Source of the DNA: a virus
Reading direction: 5' to 3' (one strand)
IMG/VR virus record: IMGVR_UViG_3300022542_001227
Span: 1 to 40,383 of that record
DNA length: 40,383 bases
Made by a program: the position numbers and the translations under genes. Positions 5,429-40,252 of this stretch are shown piece by piece. The notes under the pieces are model-generated. The model saw only the letters and a list, made by a program, of their open reading frames with translations. It searched no databases and was not told the origin of the DNA. Each line of letters begins with the position of its first letter. Position 1 is the stretch's first letter.

Positions 5429-5548
5429 CTATTTAACTTTAAAAGAAATCCATACACGATTGCAGTTACTACAAAGTACAATATCATATGGTGCACCGCC
5501 ATCACAAGGACATTTGTCTGAAATTTTAGTAATACATTCCTTACACAT
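5429..5548 (-). CDS. Zinc-ribbon micro-protein (39 aa)
   Basis: Hand translation MCKECITKISDKCPCDGGAPYDIVLCSNCNRVWISFKVK. The ATG lies 2 nt after the stop of 5551..5871. Confidence 0.4.
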   Translation of the reverse strand: MCKECITKISDKCPCDGGAPYDIVLCSNCNRVWISFKVK

Positions 5549-7237: not shown

Positions 7238-7267
7238 GTAGCAATATGCTACAAAGGGGTATTTAAA
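7238..7267 (-). promoter_or_regulatory. Motif promoter 2: TTTAAATA at -30, palindrome GTAGCA-TAT-TGCTAC abutting the ATG
   Basis: Read directly. The palindrome spans 7238-7252. Confidence 0.6.
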
Positions 7268-9509: not shown

Positions 9510-9538
9510 GTAGCATATTGCTACATATCACTATAAAA
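9510..9538 (-). promoter_or_regulatory. Motif promoter 3: TTTTATAG at -29, palindrome GTAGCA-ATA-TGCTAC abutting the ATG
   Basis: Read directly. The palindrome spans 9510-9524. Confidence 0.6.
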
Positions 9539-9747: not shown

Positions 9748-11538
9748 TTAGAGTGTCTTAAACCAACCTGAACTATCATTTTTGAGTAAGTGAGCAACAA
9801 ACATGTACACAAGTGCATGCATTGCATCATCTGGTTCTGTTTCATCATGTTCATACACCATAGTTTCCCTGCCTTTTCGTAGTACCATAACCCCTTCAAC
9901 TGCTTCAAAGTTGTCAATGAGCCAATCATTATCTGTATCAGTAAATCCAGGCAATCCAGTATTATATGGAATAATTAATCTAGGAAATGTATTGTTCCCT
10001 TGCACATGATACCTTGTCATAAGATCACGTAGTTGCTCAATTGCATATGTTCTATCTATCATGTATCTATTATCATATCGCAGTTGATCAATTTCTTCTG
10101 GTTTTGGTAATGGAAATTCTGGCCTGCCCATTGGATAATAATTAATTCTAACAACACGTGGCCCAAATGTATCTTGTAGTTTTTGTACTTGTCTAGTTCC
10201 ACCACCAGCATCTATTCCAACCATATCAACTTCATATGCATTGATTAATGAAATTAGCATGTCTGCTTGTTTCTCAACATCTTTTTCTTTGATTCGTCTT
10301 ACGTACAATGTTTTGAAAATTGGTGCAGTTGGGTGTAGTCTTTGTGCAATCCAGATTATTGTATATGCTTTGTTGCCACCACCAAGATCTATTCCAGCAA
10401 GTATGGGGCCTTTTGTTTTATCAATTAAGTCTGCAGGTGTTAGTGAAGATGATTTATCAAATAGTTTTTCAAGGTCTTCACGTAGAAATGGTTTTGCTGC
10501 ACCTTTGATGAACTTGGCCTTAATGTGACGCATGTATTCATCATATGTTAATTCGTTCTTCAACCACTGTAAAGACCACTTGATAGAAATTTTGTATTTC
10601 TGCATTGCTTCTGTTTCTGTAACTGGAACATTTGGAAATATTTCTTGGCCCATGTGATAACCGTTAATTGGTGAATCATGATTTGCTTGTGATACCCATT
10701 TACCTGCAAGTAGTGGTTTCATGTAATTACCCCACACTAATCTGCTTCTTCCAATTGTAAATTCATCTTCAAGTAGTTCTTTACAATTGTATCCTAGGAA
10801 TTTTAAACCATCACGCCACTTTTCATTGTCATATATCCATTCCATTTGATTTGATTCAAGCCATCCTTTGTGATGTTTAGTGCCAATGTATCCACCGATA
10901 CCTGCAAGAAATGAATTACCTTGTGTCCAGGAAGATGCAAGTATTAGCCTACCATATGCTACCATGTTCAAGTATTGCCATTCATCTAGAAAATTATCAT
11001 CAGTAGATTTTCCTTCAGCGTGTGTAAAGTCATGATTATGTGTAATGAAATCTTGCTTACTACCATTTAGAAAATCCATATGATTCATTGAACCAAGTGT
11101 TGTACCGTTTACAAATTTAGCAAGGAAGTTATCTTTGCCACCAAATACTGATTGTCGATATTTAGCACCAACAAATGTTCGTCTTGATTCATCTTCATAT
11201 GTACAGTACAATTGCCAAGAATTATTTTTAGTAATTGCTTTGTATGCAAGTTTGTTTCCAATTAATGATGTTTTGCCACGTTGTCTTGCAATTACATATC
11301 GCTGTTCATCAGATTCATCTTCATATGGTTGTTTCCACATTGGTAAAAATTCTAAGATATTACGTTTGCCTTCAAAGTATGGCCTATACTTTATTGTAAA
11401 TTCGTAACAGTTAGCTGCATCAATTTGTGGTAAGGTGTCTACTGCTGCTTCCTTTGCTTGATTCAAAGAAGCCATTGAGATCTTCGATTCGTTGTGCTTC
11501 TCTACTGTCTTCCATCTTTTTGTTCTGGTCACTGTCAT
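9748..11538 (-). CDS. terL: Terminase large subunit
   Basis: Walker A-like VIARQRGKTS and Walker B LDEWQ. RNaseH-like nuclease Asp motifs GIDLGGG, GIDAGGG and DDAMHA. 596 aa. An alternative start at M22 is possible. Confidence 0.9.
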   Translation of the reverse strand: MTVTRTKRWKTVEKHNESKISMASLNQAKEAAVDTLPQIDAANCYEFTIKYRPYFEGKRNILEFLPMWKQPYEDESDEQRYVIARQRGKTSLIGNKLAYKAITKNNSWQLYCTYEDESRRTFVGAKYRQSVFGGKDNFLAKFVNGTTLGSMNHMDFLNGSKQDFITHNHDFTHAEGKSTDDNFLDEWQYLNMVAYGRLILASSWTQGNSFLAGIGGYIGTKHHKGWLESNQMEWIYDNEKWRDGLKFLGYNCKELLEDEFTIGRSRLVWGNYMKPLLAGKWVSQANHDSPINGYHMGQEIFPNVPVTETEAMQKYKISIKWSLQWLKNELTYDEYMRHIKAKFIKGAAKPFLREDLEKLFDKSSSLTPADLIDKTKGPILAGIDLGGGNKAYTIIWIAQRLHPTAPIFKTLYVRRIKEKDVEKQADMLISLINAYEVDMVGIDAGGGTRQVQKLQDTFGPRVVRINYYPMGRPEFPLPKPEEIDQLRYDNRYMIDRTYAIEQLRDLMTRYHVQGNNTFPRLIIPYNTGLPGFTDTDNDWLIDNFEAVEGVMVLRKGRETMVYEHDETEPDDAMHALVYMFVAHLLKNDSSGWFKTL

Positions 11539-15704: not shown

Positions 15705-15734
15705 GTAGCAAATTGCTACATGGTTCTTAATATA
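15705..15734 (-). promoter_or_regulatory. Motif promoter 5: TATATTAA at -30, 9-bp-arm palindrome CATGTAGCA-ATT-TGCTACATG
   Basis: Read directly. Core palindrome at 15705-15719. Drives the RHH gene. Confidence 0.6.
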
Positions 15735-24559: not shown

Positions 24560-24718
24560 TTATTTCAGCCTCTTTTTGTCTTTAGAAATTGCAGAATTTA
24601 TTGCATTAATCATGTATGAAGGTAATGAACCTAGGGTATATTTTTCTAGAAAAGTATTCCATTTCTTAACATCTGTTTTTAATGCTCTAATATTTGTCCA
24701 CTTGCTTGTTTTAACCAT
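24560..24718 (-). CDS. Small basic protein (52 aa), first gene of a motif-driven unit
   Basis: Hand translation MVKTSKWTNIRALKTDVKKWNTFLEKYTLGSLPSYMINAINSAISKDKKRLK. The ATG abuts the GTAGCAAAATGCTAC palindrome. Confidence 0.45.
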   Translation of the reverse strand: MVKTSKWTNIRALKTDVKKWNTFLEKYTLGSLPSYMINAINSAISKDKKRLK

Positions 24719-24748
24719 GTAGCATTTTGCTACAAGACATTATATAAA
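24719..24748 (-). promoter_or_regulatory. Motif promoter 7: TTTATATA at -30, palindrome GTAGCA-AAA-TGCTAC abutting the ATG
   Basis: Palindrome at 24719-24733. Confidence 0.6.
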
Positions 24749-24752: not shown

Positions 24753-25565
24753 TTATTTTCTATTGTACAAAGATCTTAAAACCCTTCGTTGTCGCCATCT
24801 AGATAAATGGCGGTTCAATATGCCTGAACTTCCAAATCTATCTTGCATTCTTGGAATGCTGCTTATTGTATCCCAATAGAAATTTTGTTTCTGTAGTATT
24901 CCATTAACATATCCAGGCTTTGCATATGGCCCCATTAGTGATTCATTGGGATTTGCTAAATCATGTCTTCCAATTAGTGAATGAAATATTTCATGCATTG
25001 CAATTTGTAATGTTGGCTGACTGGCTCTCATTATTAAATTACCTAGTCTATCAGTTTGTCCTGGATGGAAATTTATAGGATCAACAAAGTGTGCTTCAAC
25101 TGGCCAACCTAATGAAGTAAAATACCAATTGCTTTCTGGTGAATCATTGAATTCTATTACACCATTAAATTTTGAATTTGGATAATATAGATATGCATGT
25201 GCAAGTACTCCAAGTTTGTTTCCAAATGTTTCAATATCTTCACGCCATTCAATTGTAAGATCAGTTTTGATTCCAGTGAGTTTTTGAAAATCTAATTTTA
25301 TTTTTGTTAATTTTTGAAAAGAATTGAATGCTTCTTGAAATGTAGTTAGCTGTGCTTTACCAGTCATATCGGGTGTATGATCTATAAATTTCCAATCAAA
25401 ATATTTTTTATCAGGTGGCCAATTGAATTTCCATATATCTTGGCCAATATCTATTTCATCAACAATCTCACCGTCTAGTGTGTTTAGTACATAGTTGATT
25501 GTTTTACCTGGGTTATCTTCTTGAACTAGTGAACATCTGATTTGATCAGTACTGAAATTAACCAT
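24753..25565 (-). CDS. Matrixin-like (metzincin) zinc metalloprotease, no signal peptide (270 aa)
   Basis: HEIFHSLIGRH zinc site at 24963-24995 followed by an SLMGPY Met-turn. Upstream TDLTIEWRED and GVLAHAYLYYPNSKFNGVIEFNDSPESNWYF parallel the matrixin blocks aDImI.F and GtLAHAf.P...G..HFDd.E.W. Confidence 0.7.
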   Translation of the reverse strand: MVNFSTDQIRCSLVQEDNPGKTINYVLNTLDGEIVDEIDIGQDIWKFNWPPDKKYFDWKFIDHTPDMTGKAQLTTFQEAFNSFQKLTKIKLDFQKLTGIKTDLTIEWREDIETFGNKLGVLAHAYLYYPNSKFNGVIEFNDSPESNWYFTSLGWPVEAHFVDPINFHPGQTDRLGNLIMRASQPTLQIAMHEIFHSLIGRHDLANPNESLMGPYAKPGYVNGILQKQNFYWDTISSIPRMQDRFGSSGILNRHLSRWRQRRVLRSLYNRK

Positions 25566-25570
25566 GTTAA

Positions 25571-25600
25571 ATTAAAATAAAAAAAGAAGATAAAGGTTTC
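25571..25600 (-). repeat. 30-bp conserved intergenic element, copy A (terminator and/or promoter)
   Basis: Gene-sense GAAACCTTTATCTTCTTTTTTTATTTTAAT, identical to 35989-36018. Lies between a stop codon and the next ATG. Confidence 0.8.
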
Positions 25601-26133
25601 TAGTTGTTCCAGGCTTGATCGTTCATTACACGTTTCTTTTCAGCAATTGCTTCTGCCATTTGTTTTTGTGCATCTACAATATCTTTACTAACTGCATCAA
25701 TTTCTTCTGAAAAATTATCCTTTAGTGTTGGATATTGTTCTTTCATTGAATTGAATTTTGCAAGTAGTTTTTCACTTCTAACAATATCATCAGCATAAAA
25801 TTGTATCATTTGATTCAATTGTTTGGCCATGTTAGTGCGTGCCCAATTGCCATTTGGACTTCTTAACCCACTTGATACTACTGCAGCAATCTTTTGTCCT
25901 TGGGTAATACCCAGCATCAAAATACCTGCACCTGCAATACTAAACACAACACCTTGGAATAATCCAAGATCAATTGTTCCAGTTACAACAATGTTATCTT
26001 TGCCATTCCAAACACCAATGATTACTGTTGCAGCATATGTTGCAACAATTAGTACAAGTACTACACCAACAACTATCATTGCCATTTCATTCTTGCTTAG
26101 ATTTCCTAATTGGTTAGGATTGTCTTTACTCAT
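25600..26133 (-). CDS. Two-TM membrane protein with C-terminal coiled coil (177 aa), holin-like candidate
   Basis: Hydrophobic helices MAMIVVGVVLVLIVATYAATVIIGVW and LGLFQGVVFSIAGAGILMLGI. Motif-type promoter upstream. Confidence 0.6.
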   Translation of the reverse strand: MSKDNPNQLGNLSKNEMAMIVVGVVLVLIVATYAATVIIGVWNGKDNIVVTGTIDLGLFQGVVFSIAGAGILMLGITQGQKIAAVVSSGLRSPNGNWARTNMAKQLNQMIQFYADDIVRSEKLLAKFNSMKEQYPTLKDNFSEEIDAVSKDIVDAQKQMAEAIAEKKRVMNDQAWNN

Positions 26134-26164
26134 TGAATATGTAGCATATTGTCTACTATTAAAA
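26134..26164 (-). promoter_or_regulatory. Motif promoter 8: TTTTAATA at -31, degenerate palindrome GTAGAC-AATA-TGCTAC, 6-nt spacer to the ATG
   Basis: Motif at 26139-26156. Confidence 0.5.
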
Positions 26165-26446
26165 TTAGTCTGATTTTAGATTAAAGTGCTTTAGTAAAAT
26201 ATCCACTTTTGCAGTAGTAGCTGCTTGTTCTACCTTTACTTCTTCTAACTCTTTGTATAGATCTTTATGAGTATCATGACCATTTTTGGTTTCTTCTTCT
26301 TGGTGTTCTAGTTTATTTCTAAAAATTGTTAGGCATTTATCTTTTTTAATTACATACTTGATCCCTTTGTAAATAAAAGGTGATAAGATAGCTGCAACAC
26401 CAACTGCAGTTCCAGCAGCAATTTCAAGATAAAAATGCTCAGACAT
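26165..26446 (-). CDS. Single-TM membrane protein with charged C-terminus (93 aa)
   Basis: N-terminal helix IAAGTAVGVAAILSPFIY followed by a K/E/H-rich tail. Confidence 0.55.
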   Translation of the reverse strand: MSEHFYLEIAAGTAVGVAAILSPFIYKGIKYVIKKDKCLTIFRNKLEHQEEETKNGHDTHKDLYKELEEVKVEQAATTAKVDILLKHFNLKSD

Positions 26447-26505
26447 AGGATGATGAAAGTATGCATGTATTTAAGAAATGATTTATGCCTAGGTTATTGT
26501 GTAAT

Positions 26506-26535
26506 ATTTATTACATGCTACATGAAATATGCTAC
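26506..26535 (+). promoter_or_regulatory. Motif promoter 9 (plus strand): ATTTATTA at -30, tandem ATGCTACATG-N4-ATGCTACATG
   Basis: Copies at 26515-26524 and 26529-26538. Confidence 0.55.
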
Positions 26536-26769
26536 ATGAATCAAAACAAAAAAGCATTGATAATTACATTATCAGTATTAGCTACTGTGATTGTAATTTC
26601 TACTGGGTTCAGTTATGCAACACATATTGATGAATCTGATCCAGATTGGCAATGTAAAAAATGGATAGGTATAACAGAACTTGCAAAACAAGGTTATCCA
26701 CATTTTCTTGAAGATAGTTTAACTATGGGCAAGATGAAATGTGGTTTTGACATTAGTGAATTTATTTAA
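26536..26769 (+). CDS. Small secreted or membrane-anchored protein (77 aa); the only plus-strand gene
   Basis: Track ORF 26485..26769 trimmed to the ATG at 26536, which abuts the second ATGCTAC copy. MNQNKKALIITLSVLATVIVISTGFSYA is a signal or anchor-like segment. Two Cys residues. Confidence 0.55.
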   Translation: MNQNKKALIITLSVLATVIVISTGFSYATHIDESDPDWQCKKWIGITELAKQGYPHFLEDSLTMGKMKCGFDISEFI

Positions 26770-26787: not shown

Positions 26788-28854
26788 CTAACTTGTAACA
26801 GATGCATCAAAATCAAATCCATACCAATTACCATTTACATTTCTAACCCACAATCTAAGTAATAATCCAGTATCCCATCCCATTGCACCTTCATGATCTC
26901 CCAATGCAGCATCCATGTTTGCTTTAGTTTTTGAGCCAGGTAATGAACCAGATGGAATTGCAAGCAGTCCCAATGTTCCAATATTAGCAGCAGCATTATC
27001 AACTTGAATTCCAATTTCTGCTAGTTGTGCAGATAGTATTCTACTACCAGTTTTTATTGTAATATCTGCAACATCAACAAGATCACCATCACCCATATCA
27101 ATCGCACCACCCAACATATTGAGAGTGCTACCAGAACCATTTGCTTGCAATACATCAAATCCAGTAATATCACCTCCACTCATATTCAAAAGTGATCCAG
27201 CACCACTAAAAATTAAATCATCTATTGATGTAATATCATTTGAATTCATATTCACATTTGTAAACATGTTAATTATAGATGCACCAATACCAAACTTTTG
27301 AGAACCATTTATAGTAACAAGTAACCCATCACCAGTTGGAACATTAATCAAAAGGTTAGGATCATCAAAGTGAATATATGGAATAGTTGATAATAATGAA
27401 GATTGATTTGCATTTCTAAATTCTATCCCTCTAAAATCTTGTAACAAAAAATTATCTGCATCTATATTAGTAGTCCAAGGGGTTTGCGAACCGCCACCAG
27501 TTGTTAAATCTACTGCAGCTAGTCCATCACCAACAAAAAATGGTCTTGAAATACCAGCCACATCTTTTACATAAAACATTCCTTCATTAACACCAGCAGT
27601 TGGATCAGCCCTCTCACCCATTCTAACAAATCCAGTATTGAGTATTAGATTTCTATCAGATGTTAATTCAAATCTATCAGTTCCGAAAAACATTGTATTC
27701 ACATTATCATTTACAACATTGATTCTTCCAGAAGAAGCAGAACCAGTAAAGTACGTATCACCACCACCATCAAAAAATAATTTACTCGTATCTAATCCAG
27801 ACTGTAAAATAAGATCTTGAACTATTTCAACATCTTCTACCATTCTAATTCGTTCATCATTTGCAGAATTAATGATCATGAATGGTTTGAATTGTGTTGT
27901 TGCACCAGTATCAAATGATGTTGCAAATATCATACTTGATGCAATTCTACCAGCAGTAACATTTTCATATTCAACTGCAATTTGAGAATACACTTGTGAA
28001 GCCAGTGCTGAATCAGTACCGATAAATCTTAGTTTACCAAATTCATCATCATTAGCTGGGCTTGGATCATCTCGAAATATATCAATACGTGGTACTGCAG
28101 ATGCATCTAATGCATTTGTTTCAACTGTTAAAACAGTATCATTATTTACACCTTCTCTATTTAGTTGCATAATTGTTTCATTACTATTAGTCCAGAACCA
28201 TTGTTTTTGATCAGCGATATTGTAAACCATGTTGGATACACCATCCAAGTAAATTGATGGATCATCAGCAGAAGCAGGTGCAGCACTATCTGAAACAAAT
28301 CTTAATCTATCAATGTTAATTCCATCAAATGTTGCAAAATTAATATCCTTTGTAGCAATATGATTTCCAAGATTATCACCTGCAAGTGTTAGCCATTTGT
28401 CACCACTTTCAACATTCCATAGCATTAGTGTAAAAGTTCCATCTGGTATTGTAATGTCTGCAGTATTTGTAAAATGTCCACCAGTTTTTAGAATAAGATC
28501 TTTACCTGTTTCTGGATGTAAGAATTTTATTTGGCCATCATTAATTGGTGATTCAAGAAAAAATAAATTTAAAGGATCATCAGTTGGGTGTGATACAATT
28601 GCGTTTGTATGTGCAGCAGGGATTTCACCAGCAGGTGATAATAGTTTTGTAATTTCTTGATCAAGTGGTGCAAGTGTGAATAATGTAGATAGTCCAGTGT
28701 TTAATGCTCCAAAACTTTCAAGTGATGTTCTACCAGTTCCAACTGATAAATCAGATACTTGTTGTTGATTGTTTACTTGATTTTCTAATTCTAACAGTCT
28801 TGAAAATATATTATTAAGTTCAGTATCTTCACCAGGTAGTTCTGCAAAAACCAT
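26788..28854 (-). CDS. Tail fibre / tail spike-like protein (688 aa)
   Basis: Position after the tail hub gene. N-terminal coiled segment followed by a long N/D/G/S/T-rich beta-type sequence. Confidence 0.6.
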   Translation of the reverse strand: MVFAELPGEDTELNNIFSRLLELENQVNNQQQVSDLSVGTGRTSLESFGALNTGLSTLFTLAPLDQEITKLLSPAGEIPAAHTNAIVSHPTDDPLNLFFLESPINDGQIKFLHPETGKDLILKTGGHFTNTADITIPDGTFTLMLWNVESGDKWLTLAGDNLGNHIATKDINFATFDGINIDRLRFVSDSAAPASADDPSIYLDGVSNMVYNIADQKQWFWTNSNETIMQLNREGVNNDTVLTVETNALDASAVPRIDIFRDDPSPANDDEFGKLRFIGTDSALASQVYSQIAVEYENVTAGRIASSMIFATSFDTGATTQFKPFMIINSANDERIRMVEDVEIVQDLILQSGLDTSKLFFDGGGDTYFTGSASSGRINVVNDNVNTMFFGTDRFELTSDRNLILNTGFVRMGERADPTAGVNEGMFYVKDVAGISRPFFVGDGLAAVDLTTGGGSQTPWTTNIDADNFLLQDFRGIEFRNANQSSLLSTIPYIHFDDPNLLINVPTGDGLLVTINGSQKFGIGASIINMFTNVNMNSNDITSIDDLIFSGAGSLLNMSGGDITGFDVLQANGSGSTLNMLGGAIDMGDGDLVDVADITIKTGSRILSAQLAEIGIQVDNAAANIGTLGLLAIPSGSLPGSKTKANMDAALGDHEGAMGWDTGLLLRLWVRNVNGNWYGFDFDASVTS

Positions 28855-28860
28855 TATAGA

Positions 28861-31509
28861 TCACCCATCAAATTTTTCATACCCTAGTACCTGCATTCTA
28901 GTACCATTTCCATCTTCATAAATTGTATATTCTGCACATGTCATTGTTCTAGGGCTTCCAATCCATCTTGCACCTTGTGCTACAAAAGTTCTTCCAACAC
29001 GTAATCTTACATCAGCATATGCATCTATTGGTGTCCAAATTGGATAATGTTGTGCACGTGCAAGTTCACCTTCACCAATTGCAACCAGTGTAAGATAATC
29101 TGAAAACCTATTTGCATTCACTGGCAGTATTCTAGCATTTGCAGTTACACCAGTTGCAGTACTTACTATTGCATCTTTCAAAAATCTTAGTTCTGTCATT
29201 CTAAGTTTTACTGTATCAATTACAAAATTACCGCCTGTAGTAGGAAATGCTAAAGTAGTAAAGAATTGTGTAATTTGTTCTTGAAACAAATCAAGGAAAC
29301 TATCTTGTGAGCCTTTGTAAAAGAATGTATCAGTGTATGATCCTTTATAGAACCAACCAAATTCTACTACTTTTTCCCAATCAAATTGAATTCCAGTAAA
29401 CTCTTTTTCCTTCAATGTAAAGTCTGTTGGTAATACGTAGCCAAGTATTTGTTCTAATTCATCAATTCTTAATTCATGTAGTCTGTAACTTTTTGCTTGT
29501 GGCCCTGCATCTGCTTTTATTTTTCCCCATCCTTTAGCATTTTCAATATTTGCATCTGTATAGATTACACGATCTTGTAAGTCACGCCACCACAATACAC
29601 CAGGAATATTTGGCATTCCATCAATTCTATTATTAGATGCATCACGAAAATCTAATTCCTGTTTGAATTCAATTCCACGAATTGCCCCAAGGTTCATTGT
29701 TTTAACACCACCATTTGATGTTGCATTATCACCAGATACAATATCAAATTCTAAATTATTTGTATCAAGAAATGGTACATTAAAAACATCACCAGGTGAT
29801 AATGCACCTTTACTTCTATGTGGTGAATACACTCTATAAGACCAGCCAGCCCATCTACTTGCAAGATTTTGTGCTTTTCTTATAAAGTTCCAATCAAATT
29901 CAAATTCAATTGCAGAATTTGCAACACCATCTGGCCCTGTTGCAAGTCTAATTGCTTTAACTGGATGAAATGGTGATGCAACATTTGCATTTGCTGTAAG
30001 TGTCCAATCAGGTAACCACACAGTACCGTTAAATCTAAAAATTTGTCCTAGTCTTCTTACATGTACAGTATCATCTGTTACAGGATTTTTTGAAAATTGC
30101 CAATCTGCACCGCCTTCTTTGAATGCATCCCACTGTGCAATTTGTCCACCATGTCCAGCCCAATCACCAGTACCACCATTTACAAGCCAGCGTTTCCCAT
30201 GTACAATTTCACCAGATGGTATTGATGTTGGATCAACTATAAAATCTTCTGGATCTTTTATTGAAACAGATTCAAATTCATTTGTTGCATCTGTTCTATC
30301 ATAGTTTGGTACTACAATATTCATATCAACAAACATTGTTTCATAAAATGCGTCACCAGTAGGATCATCACCACTTCCCATTGCCTTCCATAAATCAACA
30401 GAAGTTGTAAGTGGTGTATGTCTTATTGCAGTGCTCAGGTTTTCCCATTGAACTGGTGATGAAGAAGGTGTATTACCAAGGTTTGATGCCACAAGTGATT
30501 TGAAAAGTTGATTGTTTGATTTAACAAAGTCACCTTTGATGTAAGTGATTATGGCAGAATAAACATCAGAAATTGTTGCATGTGCATAATCAGATGCAAA
30601 TATTGTGTGAGCTAGTGGTATTGTGTGTATTCCATTTGCAGCACGTACAAGTGCAACATTCTTAAAATTTTTATTATTTATAATGTGGTTGTGTTTTTTT
30701 TCATAAACATTTTGTGAACCTGCTGCACGTGCAGCATCAAGTATTACACCAGTGGATACTGATCCAACATCTTCTGCAAATACTTCAATTTCATTTGTTC
30801 TAGTTGGGTGTGTTACATAAAACCAATAAGAATCTGTAAAATTTCCACCAACTAATGCAGGTTTTGAAACTTTTTGTATAATTTCTTCAAGTAATGTTTG
30901 GGTTGATTTGAATGCACCAGGTAGCCAATCTTGTTTAATAAATTGTTCATTTGGTAAATCTATATTTCCAGAAGTGAATGAAAAAAATGGCGCACCTGCA
31001 CCAAGACTTACTGTTAAATCACCAAGCCAATTTCTAAATGCTTCACTTGGTGTTTTTAGTTTTTGTGGTGATGATTCATAATATTCTCTACCTCTTTGTG
31101 CAATATCAATTAATGTTAGTACTACAAGTTCACCTTTTTCATCAGCATCTTGTGATGCTTCTGTAATTTCATATCTAACTAATTCACCAACCCTTCCAAG
31201 TGGATCAGGGTGTCCTGGTTCACCTGGCCTAGTATGTTGGAATTTTTGGTATTCAACATAGTATGCTGCATATGCTTCTGGTTCAACAAGTAATGGTGCT
31301 ACTGTTGTAAATAATCCATTCTTGGCCCTAAGTGTTAATGTGGCATTTCTATTTTTCTTAATTACTGAAAAACTAAATGCACCTTCTTTTCTATGTCGTG
31401 TTAAATTTCCATCAGTTGCATCACCATTTACAGAAATTACAATTCTATCAGTAGTTCTTGTTGCATCAACAAGTGTAAGTACTGTTGTGTATTCAGTTGT
31501 TGCACTCAT
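28861..31509 (-). CDS. Large tail / baseplate hub protein with CBM5/12-like segment (882 aa)
   Basis: Largest structural gene, located after the tape-measure-like and distal-tail-like genes. YIKGDFVKSNNQLFKSLVASNLGNTPSSSPVQW resembles the Y.xGD.V...Y.a...G..P.....W carbohydrate-binding repeat. Confidence 0.6.
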   Translation of the reverse strand: MSATTEYTTVLTLVDATRTTDRIVISVNGDATDGNLTRHRKEGAFSFSVIKKNRNATLTLRAKNGLFTTVAPLLVEPEAYAAYYVEYQKFQHTRPGEPGHPDPLGRVGELVRYEITEASQDADEKGELVVLTLIDIAQRGREYYESSPQKLKTPSEAFRNWLGDLTVSLGAGAPFFSFTSGNIDLPNEQFIKQDWLPGAFKSTQTLLEEIIQKVSKPALVGGNFTDSYWFYVTHPTRTNEIEVFAEDVGSVSTGVILDAARAAGSQNVYEKKHNHIINNKNFKNVALVRAANGIHTIPLAHTIFASDYAHATISDVYSAIITYIKGDFVKSNNQLFKSLVASNLGNTPSSSPVQWENLSTAIRHTPLTTSVDLWKAMGSGDDPTGDAFYETMFVDMNIVVPNYDRTDATNEFESVSIKDPEDFIVDPTSIPSGEIVHGKRWLVNGGTGDWAGHGGQIAQWDAFKEGGADWQFSKNPVTDDTVHVRRLGQIFRFNGTVWLPDWTLTANANVASPFHPVKAIRLATGPDGVANSAIEFEFDWNFIRKAQNLASRWAGWSYRVYSPHRSKGALSPGDVFNVPFLDTNNLEFDIVSGDNATSNGGVKTMNLGAIRGIEFKQELDFRDASNNRIDGMPNIPGVLWWRDLQDRVIYTDANIENAKGWGKIKADAGPQAKSYRLHELRIDELEQILGYVLPTDFTLKEKEFTGIQFDWEKVVEFGWFYKGSYTDTFFYKGSQDSFLDLFQEQITQFFTTLAFPTTGGNFVIDTVKLRMTELRFLKDAIVSTATGVTANARILPVNANRFSDYLTLVAIGEGELARAQHYPIWTPIDAYADVRLRVGRTFVAQGARWIGSPRTMTCAEYTIYEDGNGTRMQVLGYEKFDG

Positions 31510-35458: not shown

Positions 35459-35983
35459 TTAACTCACTGTATTATTAATAATATTAGTACTTGATTTTAC
35501 TTCAATTGCTGCAAGTACTTTATTTGTGCCAACAAATTTTATATATTTTCCATCAGTTGTTAAAATTTTTGTTGCTCTACGAAAATCAGAAGTGAAATCA
35601 AGAATATCACCTGATACTGCACCAAAATGTTCTGTAATGTATCCTTCAAGTGATTCTTCTGCAGGTTCCATTCTATCAATGTTTTCACTAAAGTCATGTT
35701 CAAGCATTGCAATAACAAGATCATCTGCAATTGCACGAATATGATCATCAATTGGTGCTTGGTAAGTTTTAGAATAATCATCAATTAATTCAGTTGTTCC
35801 ACTTAGTGGTAAAATAATTCTAAATCCATTTACATCAAAGTTTCCCATTCTGGCCCTAAGAGCAGAATTTATCTTACTATCAGTATTTCTTTGTGCTACT
35901 TCAACATCTTCTACTTTGTATCTTGAACCAGTTCTAGATTGTATTTTATCCCTTTTAGAATAAACTGCAACATAGTCTGCCAT
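35459..35983 (-). CDS. Head completion / connector candidate (174 aa)
   Basis: First gene after the capsid gene. Preceded by the 30-bp conserved intergenic element. Confidence 0.45.
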   Translation of the reverse strand: MADYVAVYSKRDKIQSRTGSRYKVEDVEVAQRNTDSKINSALRARMGNFDVNGFRIILPLSGTTELIDDYSKTYQAPIDDHIRAIADDLVIAMLEHDFSENIDRMEPAEESLEGYITEHFGAVSGDILDFTSDFRRATKILTTDGKYIKFVGTNKVLAAIEVKSSTNIINNTVS

Positions 35984-35988: not shown

Positions 35989-36018
35989 ATTAAAATAAAA
36001 AAAGAAGATAAAGGTTTC
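35989..36018 (-). repeat. 30-bp conserved intergenic element, copy B
   Basis: Identical to 25571-25600. Lies between the capsid gene stop and the ATG at 35983. Confidence 0.8.
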
Positions 36019-36020: not shown

Positions 36021-38453
36021 CTAGATAGTGTTTCTACTAGTTAGTCTACATGTTGAATCTTTGATTTTACAAAATGCACCAGTTTTCATAGATGCAGTTG
36101 CAAATACAGATTGCTGTCTGGATACCCTTTCAGCATCAACTTGTAGTTCCCTACCAGTAACAAATCCAAATGAAACAGTTGGAACGAACATTACAGATCT
36201 ACTTACCGTAGTAGTAGTTGGGTGTGTTGCAAGACTGTTTGTTGTGATTAATTGTACCCCAGATAATTTTTCAATTATTCCTTCCGTTATGATTTCAGGA
36301 AGGCTTCTTTGAACGTATCTTGAGATGTTTGTATCATTAATCAAGTCGTTTCTTGCTTGTGTAGTTGTGTACATTACTACATTTTCTACACTTAACCCAG
36401 TGTCTTCAATCTTTTTCTTACCTGCAAGTAATGCTGCAAAAGTCATTGCACCAGTTGCACCCGAATCACCGTTTGCTGTGGTGATTTCTGCAGCACTGTT
36501 ACCATTTATCCAGTGTCTATTACCCACAATGTCAACTGTATGTTTTGCACCGCCACCAGCAGGTCTTACTGCATCTGTTGCAGAATTATATGCTGTGTCG
36601 TTGTTGTATGCAGTGTTAAGAACTTGGAAGTTCTTTCTTTCTTCTGCACGCATTGCAAAACCAATGTTGACTTTTTGGATAATGTCTATTGGTAATTCTT
36701 CAAGATCAGTGAATCCGATTCTGACAAGTCCACCTTGTGCAGTTGTTTTTCCACCAGATGCATTGATTGTTACATCACTGGCTTGTAGTGCAAATCCACC
36801 ACCGCCTGCATCCATATCGGCTTCATCTGTATCAAAGAATTCTGGTATGTCAACATCATAGAATAGATGTTCTTTCTTGCCAGGGGCTAAGATTGCAGTT
36901 TCACAGAATTGCTGAATTGGTGTAACTATAATTCCGTTAGGAAATACTAGTACCAATTCACTTTGAGTTCGTTGGAAGTTATTAGGATCTGCACCACCAG
37001 CCATTCCAGCGTTTGTTGCTTCAAATGACTTTAGGTAGTCTTTACCCATAACACTCTCATAGGATTTCATTACGTGGTTTCCAAATTCATTCACATCTCG
37101 GAACTTACTAGTTACGAAGTTGTCAACGTATTGATGTGAAACCTTCCAAGTTTTATTCCAAGGTACATTTTCATCACCTCTAATCAACTTGTCAATCCAT
37201 TGTTTTGGGGCCATGTTAGCAGCTTCTATTGATTTGGTAAGTATTGAATTAACATTACTACCAAGTTTTGCTTTTTGAATAGCAGCAGTCTTTTGGGCTT
37301 CAAAAGATTTTTCTGCCATTGCTAAAAGTTGCTCGTTTAGCTTGTCCTTTACTTCCAAGGATTTCGTGTATTCCAGTTGAGCAGCAGTCCTTTGTCTAAC
37401 ATCAGCGTTTGGCCCATTATATTCAAGGTCTTTTGCTTCAATAGATTTGGTGCTTTCATTTAATTTGTCTAAAGCTTCTTTTGCTTTGACAGATGTAGCT
37501 CTTGCTTCTTTAGCAGCCTTGATAATCATTTCACCTTTTTTGATTGCTTCATCAGCTTTCTTTTTGGTTTCATCATTTTCATCTTCGGTTTCTTTTGATT
37601 TTTCCTTTTCAGGATCATCATTAGAATTATCTGCCTCAGTGCTTTCTTCTGGAAGTGGTTCTGTTTTCACAGGTATTTGTGCACCAGTGTCAGCATCAAT
37701 AATTGCCTTAGTTGTAGTAGGATTATTGGCGTTTGGCATGGTTCCACCTGCTTGTTCTGCTTCTGTAGAAGTCGTTGTTTCGTTATTTTTGGTTTCGTCA
37801 ACCATATTGTTTTGATTTTCTAGTGCACGTATATAACTACTATCTTTTTCAACTGCTTCTGTACTTAATGTTGCAATTGAAAACCCTGGTTTGAATACAA
37901 TACTATATTCTTCATAGATTGAATTTTGGATAATTTTGTAACATGCTACTTCATCACAAAATTGTGGTAAATCTGCAGGGTGTAATACTCCTTGTGAAAC
38001 ATTCATTTTTTTCAGAATTTCAGGGTTTTTATAAAATGGATCAGTGATCAGTCCTTCATGTAATAATTGTAATGTTTCAGGGTTCCACCAAGTTTTGCCA
38101 GAACCAACAACAATTTCTTCACCTGCTTCTAATCTGGCCCTGTAACTATCAGGTAGTAAATCTGGCCCAATTCCATCTGTTCCAATCATAGTTCCATGAT
38201 TTAACCAAATTGGTAATGCTATACCATCACCATGCATCAATTCACCAATAGAATACAGTTTTCCATTTGCGGATATTCCAGGATATGCAAGCATTCCATG
38301 AATTTTTGTGCCAGCATTGGTTTGTTCAAATACAATAACTTCACCATTTAATGCTTCAATTGCAGTCATTTTTGAAATATCACCACCTGCTGCTTCTAAT
38401 GATTTCATAAATTCTGCAGTTTTAATACTGCAAGGCTTGAAGCCTTCAATCAT
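36021..38453 (-). CDS. Prohead protease - scaffold (delta-like) - HK97-fold major capsid protein fusion (810 aa)
   Basis: N-terminal ~200 aa has HK97-type prohead protease blocks (ALPIWLNHG, MNVSQGVL). The middle ~180 aa is an acidic/K-rich coiled coil. The C-terminal ~380 aa is capsid-like and follows the portal gene. Confidence 0.7.
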   Translation of the reverse strand: MIEGFKPCSIKTAEFMKSLEAAGGDISKMTAIEALNGEVIVFEQTNAGTKIHGMLAYPGISANGKLYSIGELMHGDGIALPIWLNHGTMIGTDGIGPDLLPDSYRARLEAGEEIVVGSGKTWWNPETLQLLHEGLITDPFYKNPEILKKMNVSQGVLHPADLPQFCDEVACYKIIQNSIYEEYSIVFKPGFSIATLSTEAVEKDSSYIRALENQNNMVDETKNNETTTSTEAEQAGGTMPNANNPTTTKAIIDADTGAQIPVKTEPLPEESTEADNSNDDPEKEKSKETEDENDETKKKADEAIKKGEMIIKAAKEARATSVKAKEALDKLNESTKSIEAKDLEYNGPNADVRQRTAAQLEYTKSLEVKDKLNEQLLAMAEKSFEAQKTAAIQKAKLGSNVNSILTKSIEAANMAPKQWIDKLIRGDENVPWNKTWKVSHQYVDNFVTSKFRDVNEFGNHVMKSYESVMGKDYLKSFEATNAGMAGGADPNNFQRTQSELVLVFPNGIIVTPIQQFCETAILAPGKKEHLFYDVDIPEFFDTDEADMDAGGGGFALQASDVTINASGGKTTAQGGLVRIGFTDLEELPIDIIQKVNIGFAMRAEERKNFQVLNTAYNNDTAYNSATDAVRPAGGGAKHTVDIVGNRHWINGNSAAEITTANGDSGATGAMTFAALLAGKKKIEDTGLSVENVVMYTTTQARNDLINDTNISRYVQRSLPEIITEGIIEKLSGVQLITTNSLATHPTTTTVSRSVMFVPTVSFGFVTGRELQVDAERVSRQQSVFATASMKTGAFCKIKDSTCRLTSRNTI

Positions 38454-40252
38454 TTTAAAGGATCTTGTCCACTAGTTCTTGTAAAAATTTCTTCAACTGT
38501 TGTTGTTTGACTTCTTTTCTTAATGTCTTTCATTACTTTTTTCTTTTCATCACCACGTGGAATTTCAGTTATATCTTGGTGTCTTGTTTCTGTTTTTGCT
38601 TGCAATCCAATTTCAGCAGGGTTAATTTCTGCAGATAAATCACCAAAAGTATTTGCTTCTATTGCTTTCTTTTTGAATGCAGCAAACACTTCTTTTGAAG
38701 GTACACCATCATTAATTGCATTAAGTGCTTCTTCAACATCTTCTTCTGTGATTCCTGGAGGCATTGTTTCATATTTTGTACCAAATGTTGATTTGAATAA
38801 TACTTGTGCAAAGTTTTCTAGTGCCTTATCTTTTTGAACTATTGATTTAACATATGATTCCATTGCTTTAGGACTGTGAAGTGGATGATTTGTAAATGAT
38901 TCTGCACTAGTTGTATCAGGTTTTGGTGCTTCCTTTTCAATGTCTGGTCTTTCTGGTGCATCTGGATCTTTTGGTTTCCCTGGTGTAACAGTTTCTTCTA
39001 ATTGCATCATGTCTTCTTTATTTTTTTCTTTCCACTCCAAAAATTCATCATCATTCAAATCTGGAATAAATGATTTAAGCCCTGATCTAAATTCCATATC
39101 AGAAATTCGTTTACTTGTTTCTAGTTTGACGTATTGTTCAAATACAATTTTTTCTACGAATGCTGAAAATGTCCAACGTGGGTTTACTTCATAGAAATCA
39201 AAATTCCAGTCTTCACATTTTCTTTTCATTATTGTATTAACCATTAGTTCTTCAAGATCTTTTTGAATCCCTGCAACTTGGGCCATCATTTCTTGAATTG
39301 GTGTTTGTGATGCAGCAAAGCCTGCACTTCCTGGGTTATCTATTGCTTCACTAGGAAAATTTGTTGCTTTTGCAATTTGTTGTTTCATATCATCAGTATA
39401 ATCTTTCATCACACTGGAAATATCAGGTTGTGCTTTATTGACAATAAATTCTTTATCAGATAGTGTAATGAATTTTCTAGTGTCAGATGAATTGATATTA
39501 TTTTCAATTTCTTTGATTCTTTGTTTATTGGTTTCACCTTTGATTGTAACAAACATCATTGATTTAGCATGTTTTTCTGCAGTAGCTAATTGTGAAAATC
39601 TAATTCTGGCATCTCTATCTAATACAGACACCAGATATTTGTCTGCTTCAATTAAGTTTCCATCTTCATCAAATTCACCAGTAACTTTTTGTGGTACTGC
39701 AATTGAAAAGATTTCTGATTTTCCAAAATATTCTTCTTCTGGATTGTTAATTGCATAGTGAATCATGTAATCAGGGCTAAGTCTATGCATTTGCCCATCA
39801 ATCATTTGTATAACTTCAAGTACATTTCCAAAATCATCACGAAATGCTTTCCACATTGTAGACATGGGAACATGTTTTACATTTCCAAGTTTCCCATCTG
39901 GTGTAAATTCTTCGGACATATTGAAGGTTCCAGTAATTAACATATCCCTAACAGTTTCTTCAAATTTTGATCTTAGTCCAACGACTTTTGCCCATGTGAT
40001 AAATAATTTTGTAAATGCTTCATTGTCTGATTCATATGTAATATCAGTACCCATCAGTCTTCTATGAATTCCATTCAATCCACGTTTTACTTCTGGCCAT
40101 CCATGATAGTAATCGTAAAATCTACTAAATGGTAATTCAAATGCTGTTTCACCAGAAAACTGTTTTGACCTGGATACAATAATTGGATTTGCTGCAAATT
40201 TCTTTGCAATCCCTCTAAATGTAGAACTTAGATTTCTAATGATACTAGCCAT
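38450..40252 (-). CDS. Portal protein (600 aa)
   Basis: Size, its position immediately upstream of and overlapping the protease-capsid gene by 4 nt, and a charged C-terminal tail. No profile search was run. Confidence 0.6.
   Translation of the reverse strand: MASIIRNLSSTFRGIAKKFAANPIIVSRSKQFSGETAFELPFSRFYDYYHGWPEVKRGLNGIHRRLMGTDITYESDNEAFTKLFITWAKVVGLRSKFEETVRDMLITGTFNMSEEFTPDGKLGNVKHVPMSTMWKAFRDDFGNVLEVIQMIDGQMHRLSPDYMIHYAINNPEEEYFGKSEIFSIAVPQKVTGEFDEDGNLIEADKYLVSVLDRDARIRFSQLATAEKHAKSMMFVTIKGETNKQRIKEIENNINSSDTRKFITLSDKEFIVNKAQPDISSVMKDYTDDMKQQIAKATNFPSEAIDNPGSAGFAASQTPIQEMMAQVAGIQKDLEELMVNTIMKRKCEDWNFDFYEVNPRWTFSAFVEKIVFEQYVKLETSKRISDMEFRSGLKSFIPDLNDDEFLEWKEKNKEDMMQLEETVTPGKPKDPDAPERPDIEKEAPKPDTTSAESFTNHPLHSPKAMESYVKSIVQKDKALENFAQVLFKSTFGTKYETMPPGITEEDVEEALNAINDGVPSKEVFAAFKKKAIEANTFGDLSAEINPAEIGLQAKTETRHQDITEIPRGDEKKKVMKDIKKRSQTTTVEEIFTRTSGQDPLK

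What the first reader, a model, noticed from the sequence alone, without database searches (positions are those of the whole stretch)
24753..26769. Candidate non-canonical lysis cassette: cytoplasmic matrixin-like metalloprotease next to three small membrane proteins
Tailed phages normally keep holin and endolysin at the end of the tail-fibre module. At that position this genome has four genes:
- a 93-aa single-TM protein (26165..26446);
- a 177-aa two-TM protein with a coiled-coil tail (25600..26133);
- a divergent 77-aa signal-anchored protein (26536..26769);
- a 270-aa metzincin (24753..25565).

The metzincin carries HEIFHSLIGRH plus an SLMGPY Met-turn and the matrixin-like blocks GVLAHAY...GVIEFNDSPESNWYF. 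It has no signal peptide.

I could recognise no muramidase, amidase, peptidase-M23 or pseudomurein-type enzyme anywhere in the genome. If the host is an S-layer-only archaeon, as the promoter architecture suggests, a holin-released protease that digests the proteinaceous S-layer would be the functional analogue of holin-endolysin lysis. Egress of archaeal tailed viruses is essentially uncharacterised.

Two of the membrane-protein genes use the ATGCTAC promoter. The protease gene follows the 30-bp late intergenic element.
Basis: partly seen in the sequence, partly recalled or inferred. Interest (0 to 1): 0.8.

Follow-up and report, generated by a model that had tools for sequence, protein, structure and literature searches.

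The report
Viral metalloprotease with holin-like membrane partners
A tailed virus that probably infects ammonia-oxidising archaea carries a very conserved, signal-less matrix-metalloprotease-like enzyme next to small membrane proteins, the first concrete and testable candidate for how such viruses break the protein shell (S-layer) of their host.

Summary
All four ORFs exist as described. The 270-aa protein is a genuine, apparently active M10/matrixin-type metzincin: Pfam E 3.8e-12, AlphaFold pLDDT 84, and Foldseek TM 0.75-0.80 to MMP catalytic domains. The zinc ligands and Met-turn are invariant in 66 of 66 full-length homologues, and none has a signal peptide or TM segment.

No other wall hydrolase was detected among the other 62 ORFs screened. 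The host is very probably an S-layer-only ammonia-oxidising archaeon. The evidence is archaeal leaderless TATA promoters, a Nitrosopumilus MAG contig, and S-layer-protein-like neighbours in relatives.

New comparative evidence:
- The protease is by far the best-conserved gene, 50-84% identical where neighbours are 35-45% or unrecognisable.
- A small membrane protein lies immediately upstream in 8 of 18 non-redundant loci, drawn from at least four unrelated families. This replacement pattern is typical of holin-lysin cassettes.
- The protease shares an exact 30-bp promoter with a structural gene.
- It has a universally conserved N-terminal cysteine, a possible latency switch, and an Arg-rich C-tail.

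My best reading is a holin-released S-layer protease (about 0.45). Function is not shown. In two lineages the gene sits inside the tail module, which keeps a virion-borne entry enzyme alive. The + strand gene is not a conserved part.

The parts
24753..25565 (-). 270-aa signal-less M10/matrixin-like zinc metalloprotease. Residues 1-50 form an N-terminal beta-hairpin with invariant Cys11, about 52-225 form the catalytic domain (H191, E192, H195, H201, M211), and about 245-270 form an Arg-rich tail.
25571..25600 (-). 30-bp promoter element GAAACCTTTATCTTCTTTTTTTATTTTAAT. Its TTTAT box lies at -29..-25 from the protease ATG, which implies a leaderless mRNA. It overlaps the stop codon of the 177-aa gene.
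35989..36018 (-). Second, identical copy of the 30-bp element, in front of the 174-aa gene 35459-35983 that follows the MCP-containing gene. It links the protease to late structural expression.
25600..26133 (-). 177-aa holin-like protein with 2 TM helices and a C-terminal helical hairpin. Homologues lie directly upstream of the protease in L030, L025, L024, L008 and L010.
26141..26147 (-). ATGCTAC half-site between a TATA-like box and the ATG of the 177-aa gene.
26165..26446 (-). 93-aa protein with one N-terminal TM segment (about 7-25), a basic juxtamembrane stretch (KKDKCLT) and a charged helical tail. It has a homologue in L030 (87%) and a likely one in L005 (shared KKxxC[LF]T motif).
26461..26473 (-). 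TAAATACATGCAT box upstream of the 93-aa gene. Similar boxes stand before the 731-aa gene (4886-4898) and the 147-aa gene (5423-5435). The 13-mer alone is not statistically enriched.
26536..26769 (+). 77-aa signal-anchored protein with two cysteines, transcribed divergently. It is a variable accessory gene. Unrelated counterparts occupy the same place in L029 and L035, and L030 has a partial homologue.
26515..26535 (+). Two ATGCTAC copies directly before the ATG at 26536.
24719..24733 (+). Palindrome GTAGCATTTTGCTAC abutting the ATG of the 52-aa gene 24560-24718. It marks the start of the next transcription unit, so the protease is the last gene of the late block.
26788..31509 (-). Two tail-fibre-like genes (688 aa and 882 aa) immediately upstream of the block. 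These are context, not part of the cassette.

Best explanation
The protease is the lysin of a two-component lysis system of tailed viruses of ammonia-oxidising archaea (Nitrosopumilales).

Proposed mechanism.
1. Late in infection the enzyme is made in the cytoplasm from its own leaderless, late-type promoter. It has no export signal.
2. It is probably kept latent there, possibly by the invariant N-terminal cysteine acting on the catalytic zinc.
3. One or both small membrane proteins, above all the 2-TM protein encoded directly upstream, accumulate in the cytoplasmic membrane and permeabilise it like a holin.
4. The protease then reaches the pseudo-periplasm. Its Arg-rich C-terminal tail helps it bind the strongly acidic inner face of the S-layer.
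5. There it cuts the S-layer protein or its anchor, so that the protein shell falls apart and virions escape.

Shown here.
- The enzyme family, fold and intact active site.
- The absence of export signals.
- The extreme conservation of the protease.
- The recurrent adjacency to small TM proteins of several unrelated families.
- The shared late promoter.
- The lack of any other lysin.
- The archaeal promoter architecture.

Inferred, not shown.
- The substrate.
- Latency through the cysteine.
- Hole formation by the TM proteins.
- The role of the basic tail.
For: Enzyme and active site.
- The protein is an active-looking MMP-type metzincin.
- HExxHxxxxxH plus Met is kept in 66/66 full-length homologues, and none has a TM-like segment.

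No alternative lysin.
- No other wall-degrading family was found in the other 62 window ORFs.

Conservation.
- The protease is 80% identical to its L029 counterpart, whose other proteins are 45% identical or less, or undetectable.
- It is 71% identical in L007, 66% in L023 and 50% in L005, where almost nothing else matches.
- This fits a conserved host target. It does not fit co-evolution with viral partner proteins.

Membrane partners.
- The 2-TM protein has homologues immediately upstream of the protease in L030, L025, L024, L008 and L010.
- L005 repeats the order 1-TM, 2-TM, protease.
- L006/L007 have an unrelated 3-TM protein at that position. L029 and L034 have other 2-TM proteins there.
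- 8 of 18 non-redundant protease genes have such a neighbour against an 18% background (binomial p 0.009; the lineages are not independent).

Expression.
- An exact 30-bp promoter is shared with a gene of the structural block.
- The protease has its own TATA-like box at about -30 in most lineages.
- It is the last gene before a new operator-controlled unit.

N- and C-terminal features.
- The N-terminal Cys is kept in 62/66 homologues. The 4 exceptions are N-truncated gene calls. It is also kept in all distant representatives inspected.
- The last 30 residues carry a net charge of 0 to +9, at least +3 in 21 of 22 aligned homologues.
- The N. maritimus S-layer is highly acidic, most of all on its membrane-proximal side (PMC11153153).

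Host.
- TATA-like boxes peak at -31..-27 from the ATG. SD-like motifs occur in 2/39 first genes against 10/28 operon-internal genes.
- The only hit among species-representative genomes is a Nitrosopumilus MAG contig.
- Secreted, acidic, Ig-array giant proteins that resemble S-layer proteins lie beside the protease in L001 and L003.

Literature.
- No S-layer-degrading enzyme is known in archaeal viruses, and egress of tailed archaeal viruses is uncharacterised (PMC10791045).
- It is still described as 'unknown mechanisms' in a 2026 preprint.
Against: No experiment exists, and no substrate is known.

Gene context is not uniform.
- In L014 and L035 the gene is translationally coupled between a 166-aa tail gene and the fibre genes, with no promoter of its own.
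- In L001 and L003 it is on the opposite strand to the structural genes.
- In the WLW* loci the upstream genes have no TM segment.
- In L007 the pair follows a terminase fragment and a 487-aa protein rather than fibres.

The membrane proteins are weakly characterised.
- They match no holin family in Pfam or PHROGs.
- In the window they carry other promoter or operator types than the protease.
- The adjacency statistic is inflated by shared ancestry.

Other gaps.
- Late expression fits a virion protein as well.
- The host assignment rests on indirect evidence.
Confidence: 0.45

Rival explanations
1. The protease is a virion-associated entry enzyme. It is assembled onto the tail tip or baseplate and locally digests the S-layer from outside, so that the tail can reach the membrane. 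This would be the archaeal analogue of tail-associated peptidoglycan hydrolases.
For: - In L014 and L035 the gene lies between a conserved 166-aa tail gene and the fibre genes. It is translationally coupled there (1-nt gap, no TATA box).
- Elsewhere it is next to fibre genes.
- It shares a promoter with a structural gene.
- It has no signal peptide, as expected for a virion protein.
- Some genomes carry two paralogues (L017, L018). These could split entry and exit roles.
Against: - The protease is 50-80% identical where tail proteins are 35-45% identical or unrecognisable. A free-standing virion component should co-evolve with its docking partner.
- Its position and strand vary between lineages.
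- It is repeatedly adjacent to small TM proteins, which a virion enzyme would not need.
- It carries its own promoter in most lineages.
Confidence: 0.2
2. The protease acts inside the cell. It cleaves a conserved cytoplasmic host protein (take-over or counter-defence), or a repressor-type regulator as ImmA/IrrE-type metalloproteases do. The neighbouring membrane proteins would then be unrelated.
For: - No member of the family has an export signal.
- Small DNA-binding-type genes are adjacent in some loci. L001 has an AbrB/MazE-like gene directly upstream. In the window, L030 and L029 small RHH-like genes lie directly downstream.
- High conservation fits a conserved host target.
Against: - The protein has the MMP catalytic fold, not the M78 fold.
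- The neighbouring regulators are not conserved with it, whereas an anti-repressor protease should track its repressor.
- The late-type promoter is shared with a structural gene, which is poor timing for take-over.
- The recurrent upstream TM partner would be unexplained.
- A universally conserved N-terminal Cys suggests that the enzyme is held inactive in the cytoplasm. This is an inference.
Confidence: 0.15
3. The protease matures viral proteins, acting as a prohead protease or processing tail fibres.
For: In L007 the gene pair lies after a terminase fragment and a 487-aa protein that could be a portal. That is a place where prohead proteases are found.
Against: - In the window it lies about 10 kb from the portal and MCP genes, behind the whole tail module.
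- The capsid gene is an 810-aa fusion of the kind that carries its own protease domain in thaumarchaeal proviruses (PMC6563490; weak MCP matches).
- From general knowledge, known prohead proteases are serine or assemblin-type enzymes, not metzincins.
- Conservation is far above that of its supposed substrates.
Confidence: 0.05

Closest known systems
Matrixins (MEROPS M10A; MMP catalytic domains, bacterial karilysin)
   Same: Catalytic fold (Foldseek target TM 0.75-0.80), three-His zinc motif with catalytic Glu, Met-turn, the LAHA and EFNDxxE blocks, and a Pfam PF00413 score above threshold.
   Different: - No signal peptide, no PRCGxPD prodomain and no hemopexin domain.
- Asp rather than Ser follows the third His in 65/66 homologues.
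- The motif Gly is at position 9 instead of 8 in half of the family, including this protein.
- It has its own N-terminal beta-hairpin with an invariant Cys, and an Arg-rich C-tail.
- It belongs to a small, apparently virus-restricted clade: 20 clusters at E<=1e-30 among 1.84 billion representatives.
Holin-endolysin cassettes of tailed bacteriophages
   Same: A signal-less envelope-degrading enzyme gene lies beside small membrane-protein genes at the end of the late region. The membrane partner is replaced by unrelated 1-, 2- or 3-TM proteins between relatives, and the cassette moves between genome positions.
   Different: - The presumed substrate is a protein lattice, not peptidoglycan.
- The enzyme class is a metzincin.
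- No spanins are present.
- The partners have separate promoters.
- Nothing has been tested functionally, and the membrane proteins match no known holin family.
Pseudomurein endoisopeptidases PeiP/PeiW of methanogen tailed viruses
   Same: They are the only characterised lysins of archaeal tailed viruses. They are also peptidases made without a known export route (PMC10791045).
   Different: From general knowledge they are cysteine-type peptidases that act on pseudomurein cross-links in hosts with a pseudomurein wall. No sequence or family relation was found here.
Listeria phage-derived metzincin Mtz with TIMP-like lipoprotein Tim (PMC8235301)
   Same: A phage-associated metzincin whose expression weakens the envelope and enhances phage-mediated lysis and virion release. 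It is encoded next to a small exported partner protein.
   Different: It is secreted, acts in a peptidoglycan-walled bacterium, and is controlled by a CI/Cro-like switch. Its partner is a cleaved inhibitor-like lipoprotein. No close homology was tested or seen.
PVAP pyramid proteins of Sulfolobales viruses (SIRV2 P98, STIV C92)
   Same: An archaeal virus egress protein of about 90-100 aa with an N-terminal TM segment and a helical tail. This is the same architecture as the 93-aa protein.
   Different: There is no sequence-family match. PVAP opens the S-layer mechanically without any protease, and it is known from non-tailed viruses of thermoacidophiles.
MMP-like proteases of insect viruses (granulovirus, entomopoxvirus, ascovirus)
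   Same: They are the best structural matches among viral proteins (BFVD E 1e-7 to 1e-5). From general knowledge, they are viral MMPs that degrade a host extracellular protein barrier to aid virus release or spread.
   Different: They come from eukaryotic viruses, are larger secreted proteins, and are only 12-21% identical.

Membership tests
Peptidase M10 / matrixin (metzincin clan) | Profile match above the curated threshold | tested here: met
   PF00413 scores E 3.8e-12, 46.8 bits against a cut-off of 24, covering residues 52-216. All 68 homologues carry PF00413.
Peptidase M10 / matrixin (metzincin clan) | Zinc motif HExxHxxGxxH with three His ligands and a catalytic Glu | tested here: met
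   H191, E192, H195 and H201 are invariant. HExxHxxxxxH is present in 66/66 full-length homologues. One deviation: the Gly is at motif position 9 (HEIFHSLIGRH) in this protein and 32 others, and at the canonical position 8 in 33.
Peptidase M10 / matrixin (metzincin clan) | Met-turn below the active site | tested here: met
   M211 (SLMGPY) is invariant. A Met lies 6-14 residues after the motif in 66/66 homologues.
Peptidase M10 / matrixin (metzincin clan) | MMP catalytic-domain fold | tested here: met
   AF2 gives pLDDT 83.9. Foldseek against PDB finds MMP-13, MMP-2, MMP-3, MMP-12 and karilysin at E down to 7.8e-11, with target TM 0.75-0.80.
Peptidase M10 / matrixin (metzincin clan) | Cysteine-switch prodomain (PRCGxPD) that gives latency | tested here: not met
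   There is no PRCGxPD motif and no helical prodomain. Pro-MMP entries align no further than catalytic domains alone. A different, universally conserved N-terminal Cys exists (xxRCSLV). Whether it reaches the zinc could not be measured, because no coordinates were available.
Peptidase M10 / matrixin (metzincin clan) | Secretion signal (matrixins are extracellular enzymes) | tested here: not met
   No hydrophobic segment occurs in any of the 66 homologues or in the distant representatives.
Holin-lysin lysis cassette (functional class) | Small protein with at least one TM segment and a charged tail, encoded next to the lysin gene | tested here: met
   The 177-aa (2 TM) and 93-aa (1 TM) genes lie directly upstream. 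The adjacency recurs in 8/18 non-redundant loci, with at least 4 unrelated TM families.
Holin-lysin lysis cassette (functional class) | Lysin lacks an export signal and depends on the membrane lesion | tested here: inconclusive
   The absence of a signal is shown. Dependence on the TM proteins cannot be tested in silico.
Holin-lysin lysis cassette (functional class) | Enzyme degrades the host cell wall, and the holin forms lethal membrane holes at a set time | not testable with these tools
   This needs protease assays on S-layer sheets and holin assays.
Holin-lysin lysis cassette (functional class) | Late expression | tested here: inconclusive
   An exact 30-bp promoter is shared with a gene of the structural block. 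No expression data exist.
PVAP (virus-associated pyramid protein) | Sequence or profile similarity to SIRV2 P98 / STIV C92 | tested here: not met
   The 93-aa protein has no Pfam or PHROG match. Only the architecture is similar.
Caudoviral prohead protease | Gene lies between the portal and major capsid genes, and the enzyme has a serine or assemblin-type fold | tested here: not met
   The gene lies behind the tail-fibre genes, about 10 kb from the portal and MCP genes. The fold is a metzincin.
ImmA/IrrE (M78) anti-repressor metalloproteases | M78 profile match and conserved pairing with a cognate repressor gene | tested here: not met
   The only Pfam match is M10. The neighbouring small regulators are not conserved together with the protease.

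The most novel reading that the evidence does not exclude
This is the first identified lysis system of tailed archaeal viruses. It would consist of a cytoplasmically made, cysteine-latched matrixin that is released through holin-like membrane proteins and dissolves the acidic S-layer of ammonia-oxidising archaea. It would be conserved and horizontally exchanged across a whole assemblage of marine and terrestrial thaumarchaeal viruses. That would make it the first virus-encoded S-layer-degrading enzyme known in archaea.
Probability: 0.4. Interest if true: 0.85.

Novelty: new variant of a known kind. Interest (0 to 1): 0.7.

Why it matters
How tailed archaeal viruses leave cells that have only a protein S-layer is an acknowledged open question. 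A 2024 review states that no S-layer-degrading enzyme is known in archaeal viruses and that the players of this egress route are uncharacterised (PMC10791045). A 2026 preprint still writes 'unknown mechanisms'.

Ammonia-oxidising archaea are among the most abundant cells in the ocean, and viral lysis shapes nitrification and carbon flow.

This gene gives a concrete, very conserved and easily expressed candidate enzyme, together with candidate holins. S-layer sheets of Nitrosopumilus maritimus can already be isolated and imaged at atomic resolution (PMC11153153), so the hypothesis can be tested directly.

The protease would also serve as a marker gene for this virus assemblage, and as a tool for removing thaumarchaeal S-layers.

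Tried and rejected
- tblastn of the protease against 50,697 GenBank phage records gave no match. TerL finds only Bacillus phages at about 22% identity, so no described relative exists in that collection.
- PHROGs gave nothing for the protease or the three membrane proteins, apart from one chance-level hit.
- A database-wide search with the 177-aa protein returned only 4 close homologues. The distant ones were found only by a local phmmer search within the fetched loci. Those E-values refer to a small database and rest partly on positional coincidence.
- I could not test the cysteine-switch idea geometrically, because model coordinates are not exposed. Pro-MMP structures do not align over the N-terminal 50 residues.
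The run on four close homologues gave low confidence in the TM region.
- The C-terminal tail is basic but not clearly amphipathic (hydrophobic moment 0.3-0.55). I therefore dropped the idea of a membrane-inserting helix in favour of electrostatic binding.
- The 1765-aa neighbour in L003 has no sequence match in the PDB. Since fibre proteins here are also acidic and poor in Lys and Arg, composition alone does not prove that it is an S-layer protein.
- The prohead-protease and ImmA-like readings were considered and ranked low (see rivals).
- I could not walk along the 137-kb and 112-kb contigs to look for host genes, because look-ups are limited to window proteins and search hits.
- The TAAATACATGCAT box is not statistically enriched as a 13-mer (8 found, 5.4 expected).


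Full report
**What is in the window**

The window is a complete 40,383-bp contig of about 32% G+C, with nearly all genes on the minus strand.
- Its identifiable genes are a large terminase (9748-11538), an 810-aa protein whose C-terminal part weakly matches major capsid proteins (36021-38453), and a probable portal (38450-40252).
- There are also tail and baseplate-like genes, two fibre-like genes (28861-31509 and 26788-28854), DNA methyltransferases and an HNH nuclease.
- They lie between the last fibre gene and a new transcription unit. That unit begins with a palindromic operator and a 52-aa gene.

**The protease**

- The 270-aa product matches Pfam Peptidase_M10 above threshold (E 3.8e-12) and MMP-13 catalytic domains in the PDB by sequence.
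- An AlphaFold2 model built on 22 homologues is confident (pLDDT 83.9, pTM 0.84).
- It superposes on MMP-13, MMP-2, MMP-3, MMP-12 and karilysin catalytic domains (E about 1e-10, target TM 0.75-0.80).
- The best viral matches are the MMPs of insect viruses.
- All 66 full-length homologues among the 68 found keep HExxHxxxxxH and the Met-turn. None has a hydrophobic segment that could act as a signal peptide or anchor.

The family departs from textbook matrixins in four ways.
- Asp follows the third His in 65 of 66 homologues.
- The motif glycine is at position 9 in half of the members, including this one.
- A 50-residue N-terminal beta-hairpin carries an invariant Cys (DQIRCSLV). That Cys is also kept in every distant representative inspected.
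- The last 30 residues form an Arg-rich tail of net charge 0 to +9, at least +3 in 21 of the 22 aligned homologues.

The clade is small. A profile search of 1.84 billion representatives found 20 clusters at E<=1e-30 and 180 at E<=1e-3. No GenBank phage encodes a relative.

**Is there another lysin?**

A Pfam and PHROG sweep over the other 62 window ORFs found no glycosidase, amidase, M23, CHAP or Pei-type family.

**Host**

- In 39 genes preceded by a gap of at least 20 nt, TATA-like hexamers pile up at -31 to -27 from the start codon.
- Shine-Dalgarno-like motifs are nearly absent there (2/39) but common before operon-internal genes (10/28). This is the archaeal leaderless pattern.
- The only hit among 185,579 species-representative genomes is a 43.8-kb contig binned into a Nitrosopumilus MAG.
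- The capsid gene is a long fusion protein and no replication genes are recognisable. Both features were reported for thaumarchaeal head-tail proviruses (PMC6563490).
- In two long contigs the protease lies beside giant secreted proteins (1433 aa and 1765 aa). The 1765-aa one has annotated Ig-like domain arrays. Both have 10-12% Asp and under 2% each of Lys and Arg. That is the compositional signature published for the N. maritimus S-layer protein (PMC11153153). There is no direct sequence match, however, and the fibre proteins here are acidic too.
- I put the host as an ammonia-oxidising archaeon at roughly 80-85%.

**Comparative genomics**

The protease is the outlier in conservation.
- It is 80% identical in L029, whose other proteins are 45% identical or less, or undetectable.
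- It is 71% identical in L007, 66% in L023 and 50% in L005, where almost nothing else matches.
- Only the close relative L030 keeps the whole block in the same order: fibre, fibre, opposite-strand signal-anchored gene, 93 aa, 178 aa, protease, RHH-like gene.

A membrane protein is a recurrent neighbour.
- The 2-TM protein has homologues directly upstream of the protease in L030, L025, L024, L008 and L010. They share a TG[TS]xD[LA] loop motif, and the long forms also share the C-terminal helices.
- The Nitrosopumilus MAG contig repeats the order 1-TM, 2-TM, protease. Its 1-TM protein shares the KKxxC[LF]T motif of the 93-aa protein.
- Unrelated proteins take the place in other loci: a 3-TM protein in L006/L007 and other 2-TM proteins in L029 and L034.
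- Overall, 8 of 18 non-redundant protease genes have a co-directional 60-200-aa TM protein immediately upstream, against an 18% background (p about 0.009; the lineages are not independent).
- A conserved enzyme with a fast-changing, non-orthologously replaced membrane partner is the hallmark of holin-endolysin cassettes. That statement rests on general knowledge of phage lysis.

**Counter-examples**

These matter and are kept in view.
- In L014 and L035 the protease gene is translationally coupled between a conserved 166-aa tail gene and the fibre genes. In L035 the membrane-protein genes remain at the end of the fibre module.
- In L001 and L003 it is on the opposite strand to the fibre genes.
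- In the WLW* loci it follows a zinc-ribbon gene and precedes several signal-peptide proteins built of C-type lectin repeats. Some of these genomes have two protease paralogues.
- In L007 the pair follows a terminase fragment.

**Regulation in the window**

- An exact 30-bp element stands before the protease gene and before the 174-aa gene that follows the capsid gene. It contains a TTTAT box at -29..-25 from the ATG. It occurs nowhere else in the window. The protease therefore probably shares late, high-level, leaderless expression with a structural gene.
- Most relatives also have a TATA-like box about 30 nt before the protease ATG.
- The 'ATGCTAC promoter' is better described as a half-site of a palindrome, GTAGCA-N3-TGCTAC. 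The palindrome abuts the start codons of four 40-52-aa genes. Single or tandem half-sites precede the 177-aa gene and the + strand 77-aa gene.
- The 93-aa gene has a third type of box.
- The block is therefore not one operon. Its members seem to belong to different regulatory classes.

**Interpretation**

The extreme conservation, and the likely exchange between otherwise unrelated viruses, point to a conserved host target rather than a viral partner. That argues against a maturation role and weakens the structural-component reading.

Four features support action on the cell envelope from inside at the end of infection. They are the extracellular-type MMP fold, the lack of an export signal, the recurrent membrane-protein neighbour, and the late-type promoter, together with the absence of any other lysin.

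- The invariant N-terminal cysteine could hold the enzyme latent in the reducing cytoplasm. This is an inference by analogy with the MMP cysteine switch.
- The Arg-rich tail could bind the strongly acidic, membrane-proximal face of the AOA S-layer. This is an inference from PMC11153153.

I give the holin-released S-layer protease model about 0.45. A virion-borne entry enzyme gets about 0.2, an intracellular role about 0.15 and viral protein maturation about 0.05. The rest is unassigned.

**Known and new**

- The enzyme is a new, virus-restricted subfamily of a known family.
- The system would work like a holin-endolysin cassette, but with a different enzyme class and a protein lattice as substrate.
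- The literature I could search states that no S-layer-degrading enzyme is known in archaeal viruses and that egress of tailed archaeal viruses is uncharacterised (PMC10791045). A survey of viral lytic proteins lists only Pei and PVAP for archaea (PMC12596118).
- The nearest functional precedent for a phage-linked metzincin that promotes lysis is the secreted Mtz/Tim pair of Listeria (PMC8235301).
- I found no paper that links M10 peptidases with archaeal viruses.

Noticed in passing
window 7238-7252, 9510-9524, 15705-15719, 24719-24733: A perfect palindrome GTAGCA-N3-TGCTAC occurs four times (0.07 expected). Each copy ends at the ATG of a 40-52-aa gene and lies about 25 nt downstream of a TATA-like box. 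It looks like an operator over the transcription start of small regulator genes, at least two of which look RHH-like. Half-sites also precede the 177-aa and the + strand 77-aa genes.
   Followed up: partly
window, all genes with an upstream gap of at least 20 nt: The promoter architecture is archaeal and leaderless. TATA-like hexamers peak at -31..-27 from the ATG. SD-like motifs occur in 2/39 first genes against 10/28 operon-internal genes.
   Followed up: yes
L003 4540-9837 (-) and L004 192-5498 (-); L001 3707-8008 (-); L031 13084-16677 (+): Giant signal-peptide proteins lie next to or near the protease: 1765 aa, 1433 aa, and at least 1198 aa (cut by the contig end). Ig-like (Big/cadherin) domain arrays are annotated in the 1765-aa protein only. 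The first two have 10-12% Asp and under 2% each of Lys and Arg. They resemble the Nitrosopumilus S-layer protein in size and composition, but no PDB sequence match was found. They could be host SLP genes at a provirus border or SLP genes carried by the element.
   Followed up: partly
L022 6631-8121 and 10833-17970; the same in L019 and L021; a similar downstream array in L011: Next to the protease, these viruses encode proteins built of C-type lectin repeats: Pfam Lectin_C in the 1156-aa (E 6.5e-103, 8 repeats), 436-aa and 496-aa proteins. The first two and two similar untested paralogues (310 and 304 aa) carry Sec-type signal peptides; the 496-aa protein has none. Exported lectins are unexpected for a tailed virus.
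   Followed up: partly
L017 5301-6101 and 7213-8046; L018 953-1750 and 3193-4026: Two diverged protease paralogues, about 54% and 48% identical to the window protein, are separated by one signal-peptide gene. They may represent a division of labour such as entry versus exit.
   Followed up: no
contigs WLWD01002912.1 (L021/L022) and WLWD01002494.1 (L018/L011): The same gene order appears twice, 45-46 kb apart, on 69-kb contigs, with small differences between copies. These are concatemer or strain-chimeric assemblies of roughly 45-kb genomes, not larger genomes.
   Followed up: partly
window 36021-38453 (-): In this 810-aa protein only the C-terminal 580-790 residues resemble major capsid proteins (phrog_267 E 1.6e-6; PDB 9jwb E 0.005). 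The 550-aa N-terminal part is unassigned. It may be a protease or scaffold fusion, as described for thaumarchaeal proviruses.
   Followed up: partly
window 9748-11538 versus 38450-40252: In the direction of transcription, the terminase gene is separated from the portal gene by about 10 kb of small genes and a 731-aa fibre-like gene (2673-4868). That gene shares a 47-residue stretch at 64% identity with a fibre gene of L001. This module order is unusual.
   Followed up: no
L001 9800-9961 (+): A 53-aa AbrB/MazE-type (SpoVT-AbrB) gene lies directly upstream of the protease and is co-directional with it, in the lineage where the protease is inverted relative to the fibre genes.
   Followed up: no
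L032 7572-9092 (-); L034 1081-4773 (+); L023 8233-9522 (+): Other signal-peptide proteins lie beside the protease in further lineages. They have HemolysinCabind repeats, faint NHL-repeat matches and FG-GAP repeats respectively. Exported repeat proteins are a recurrent neighbour of this gene.
   Followed up: no
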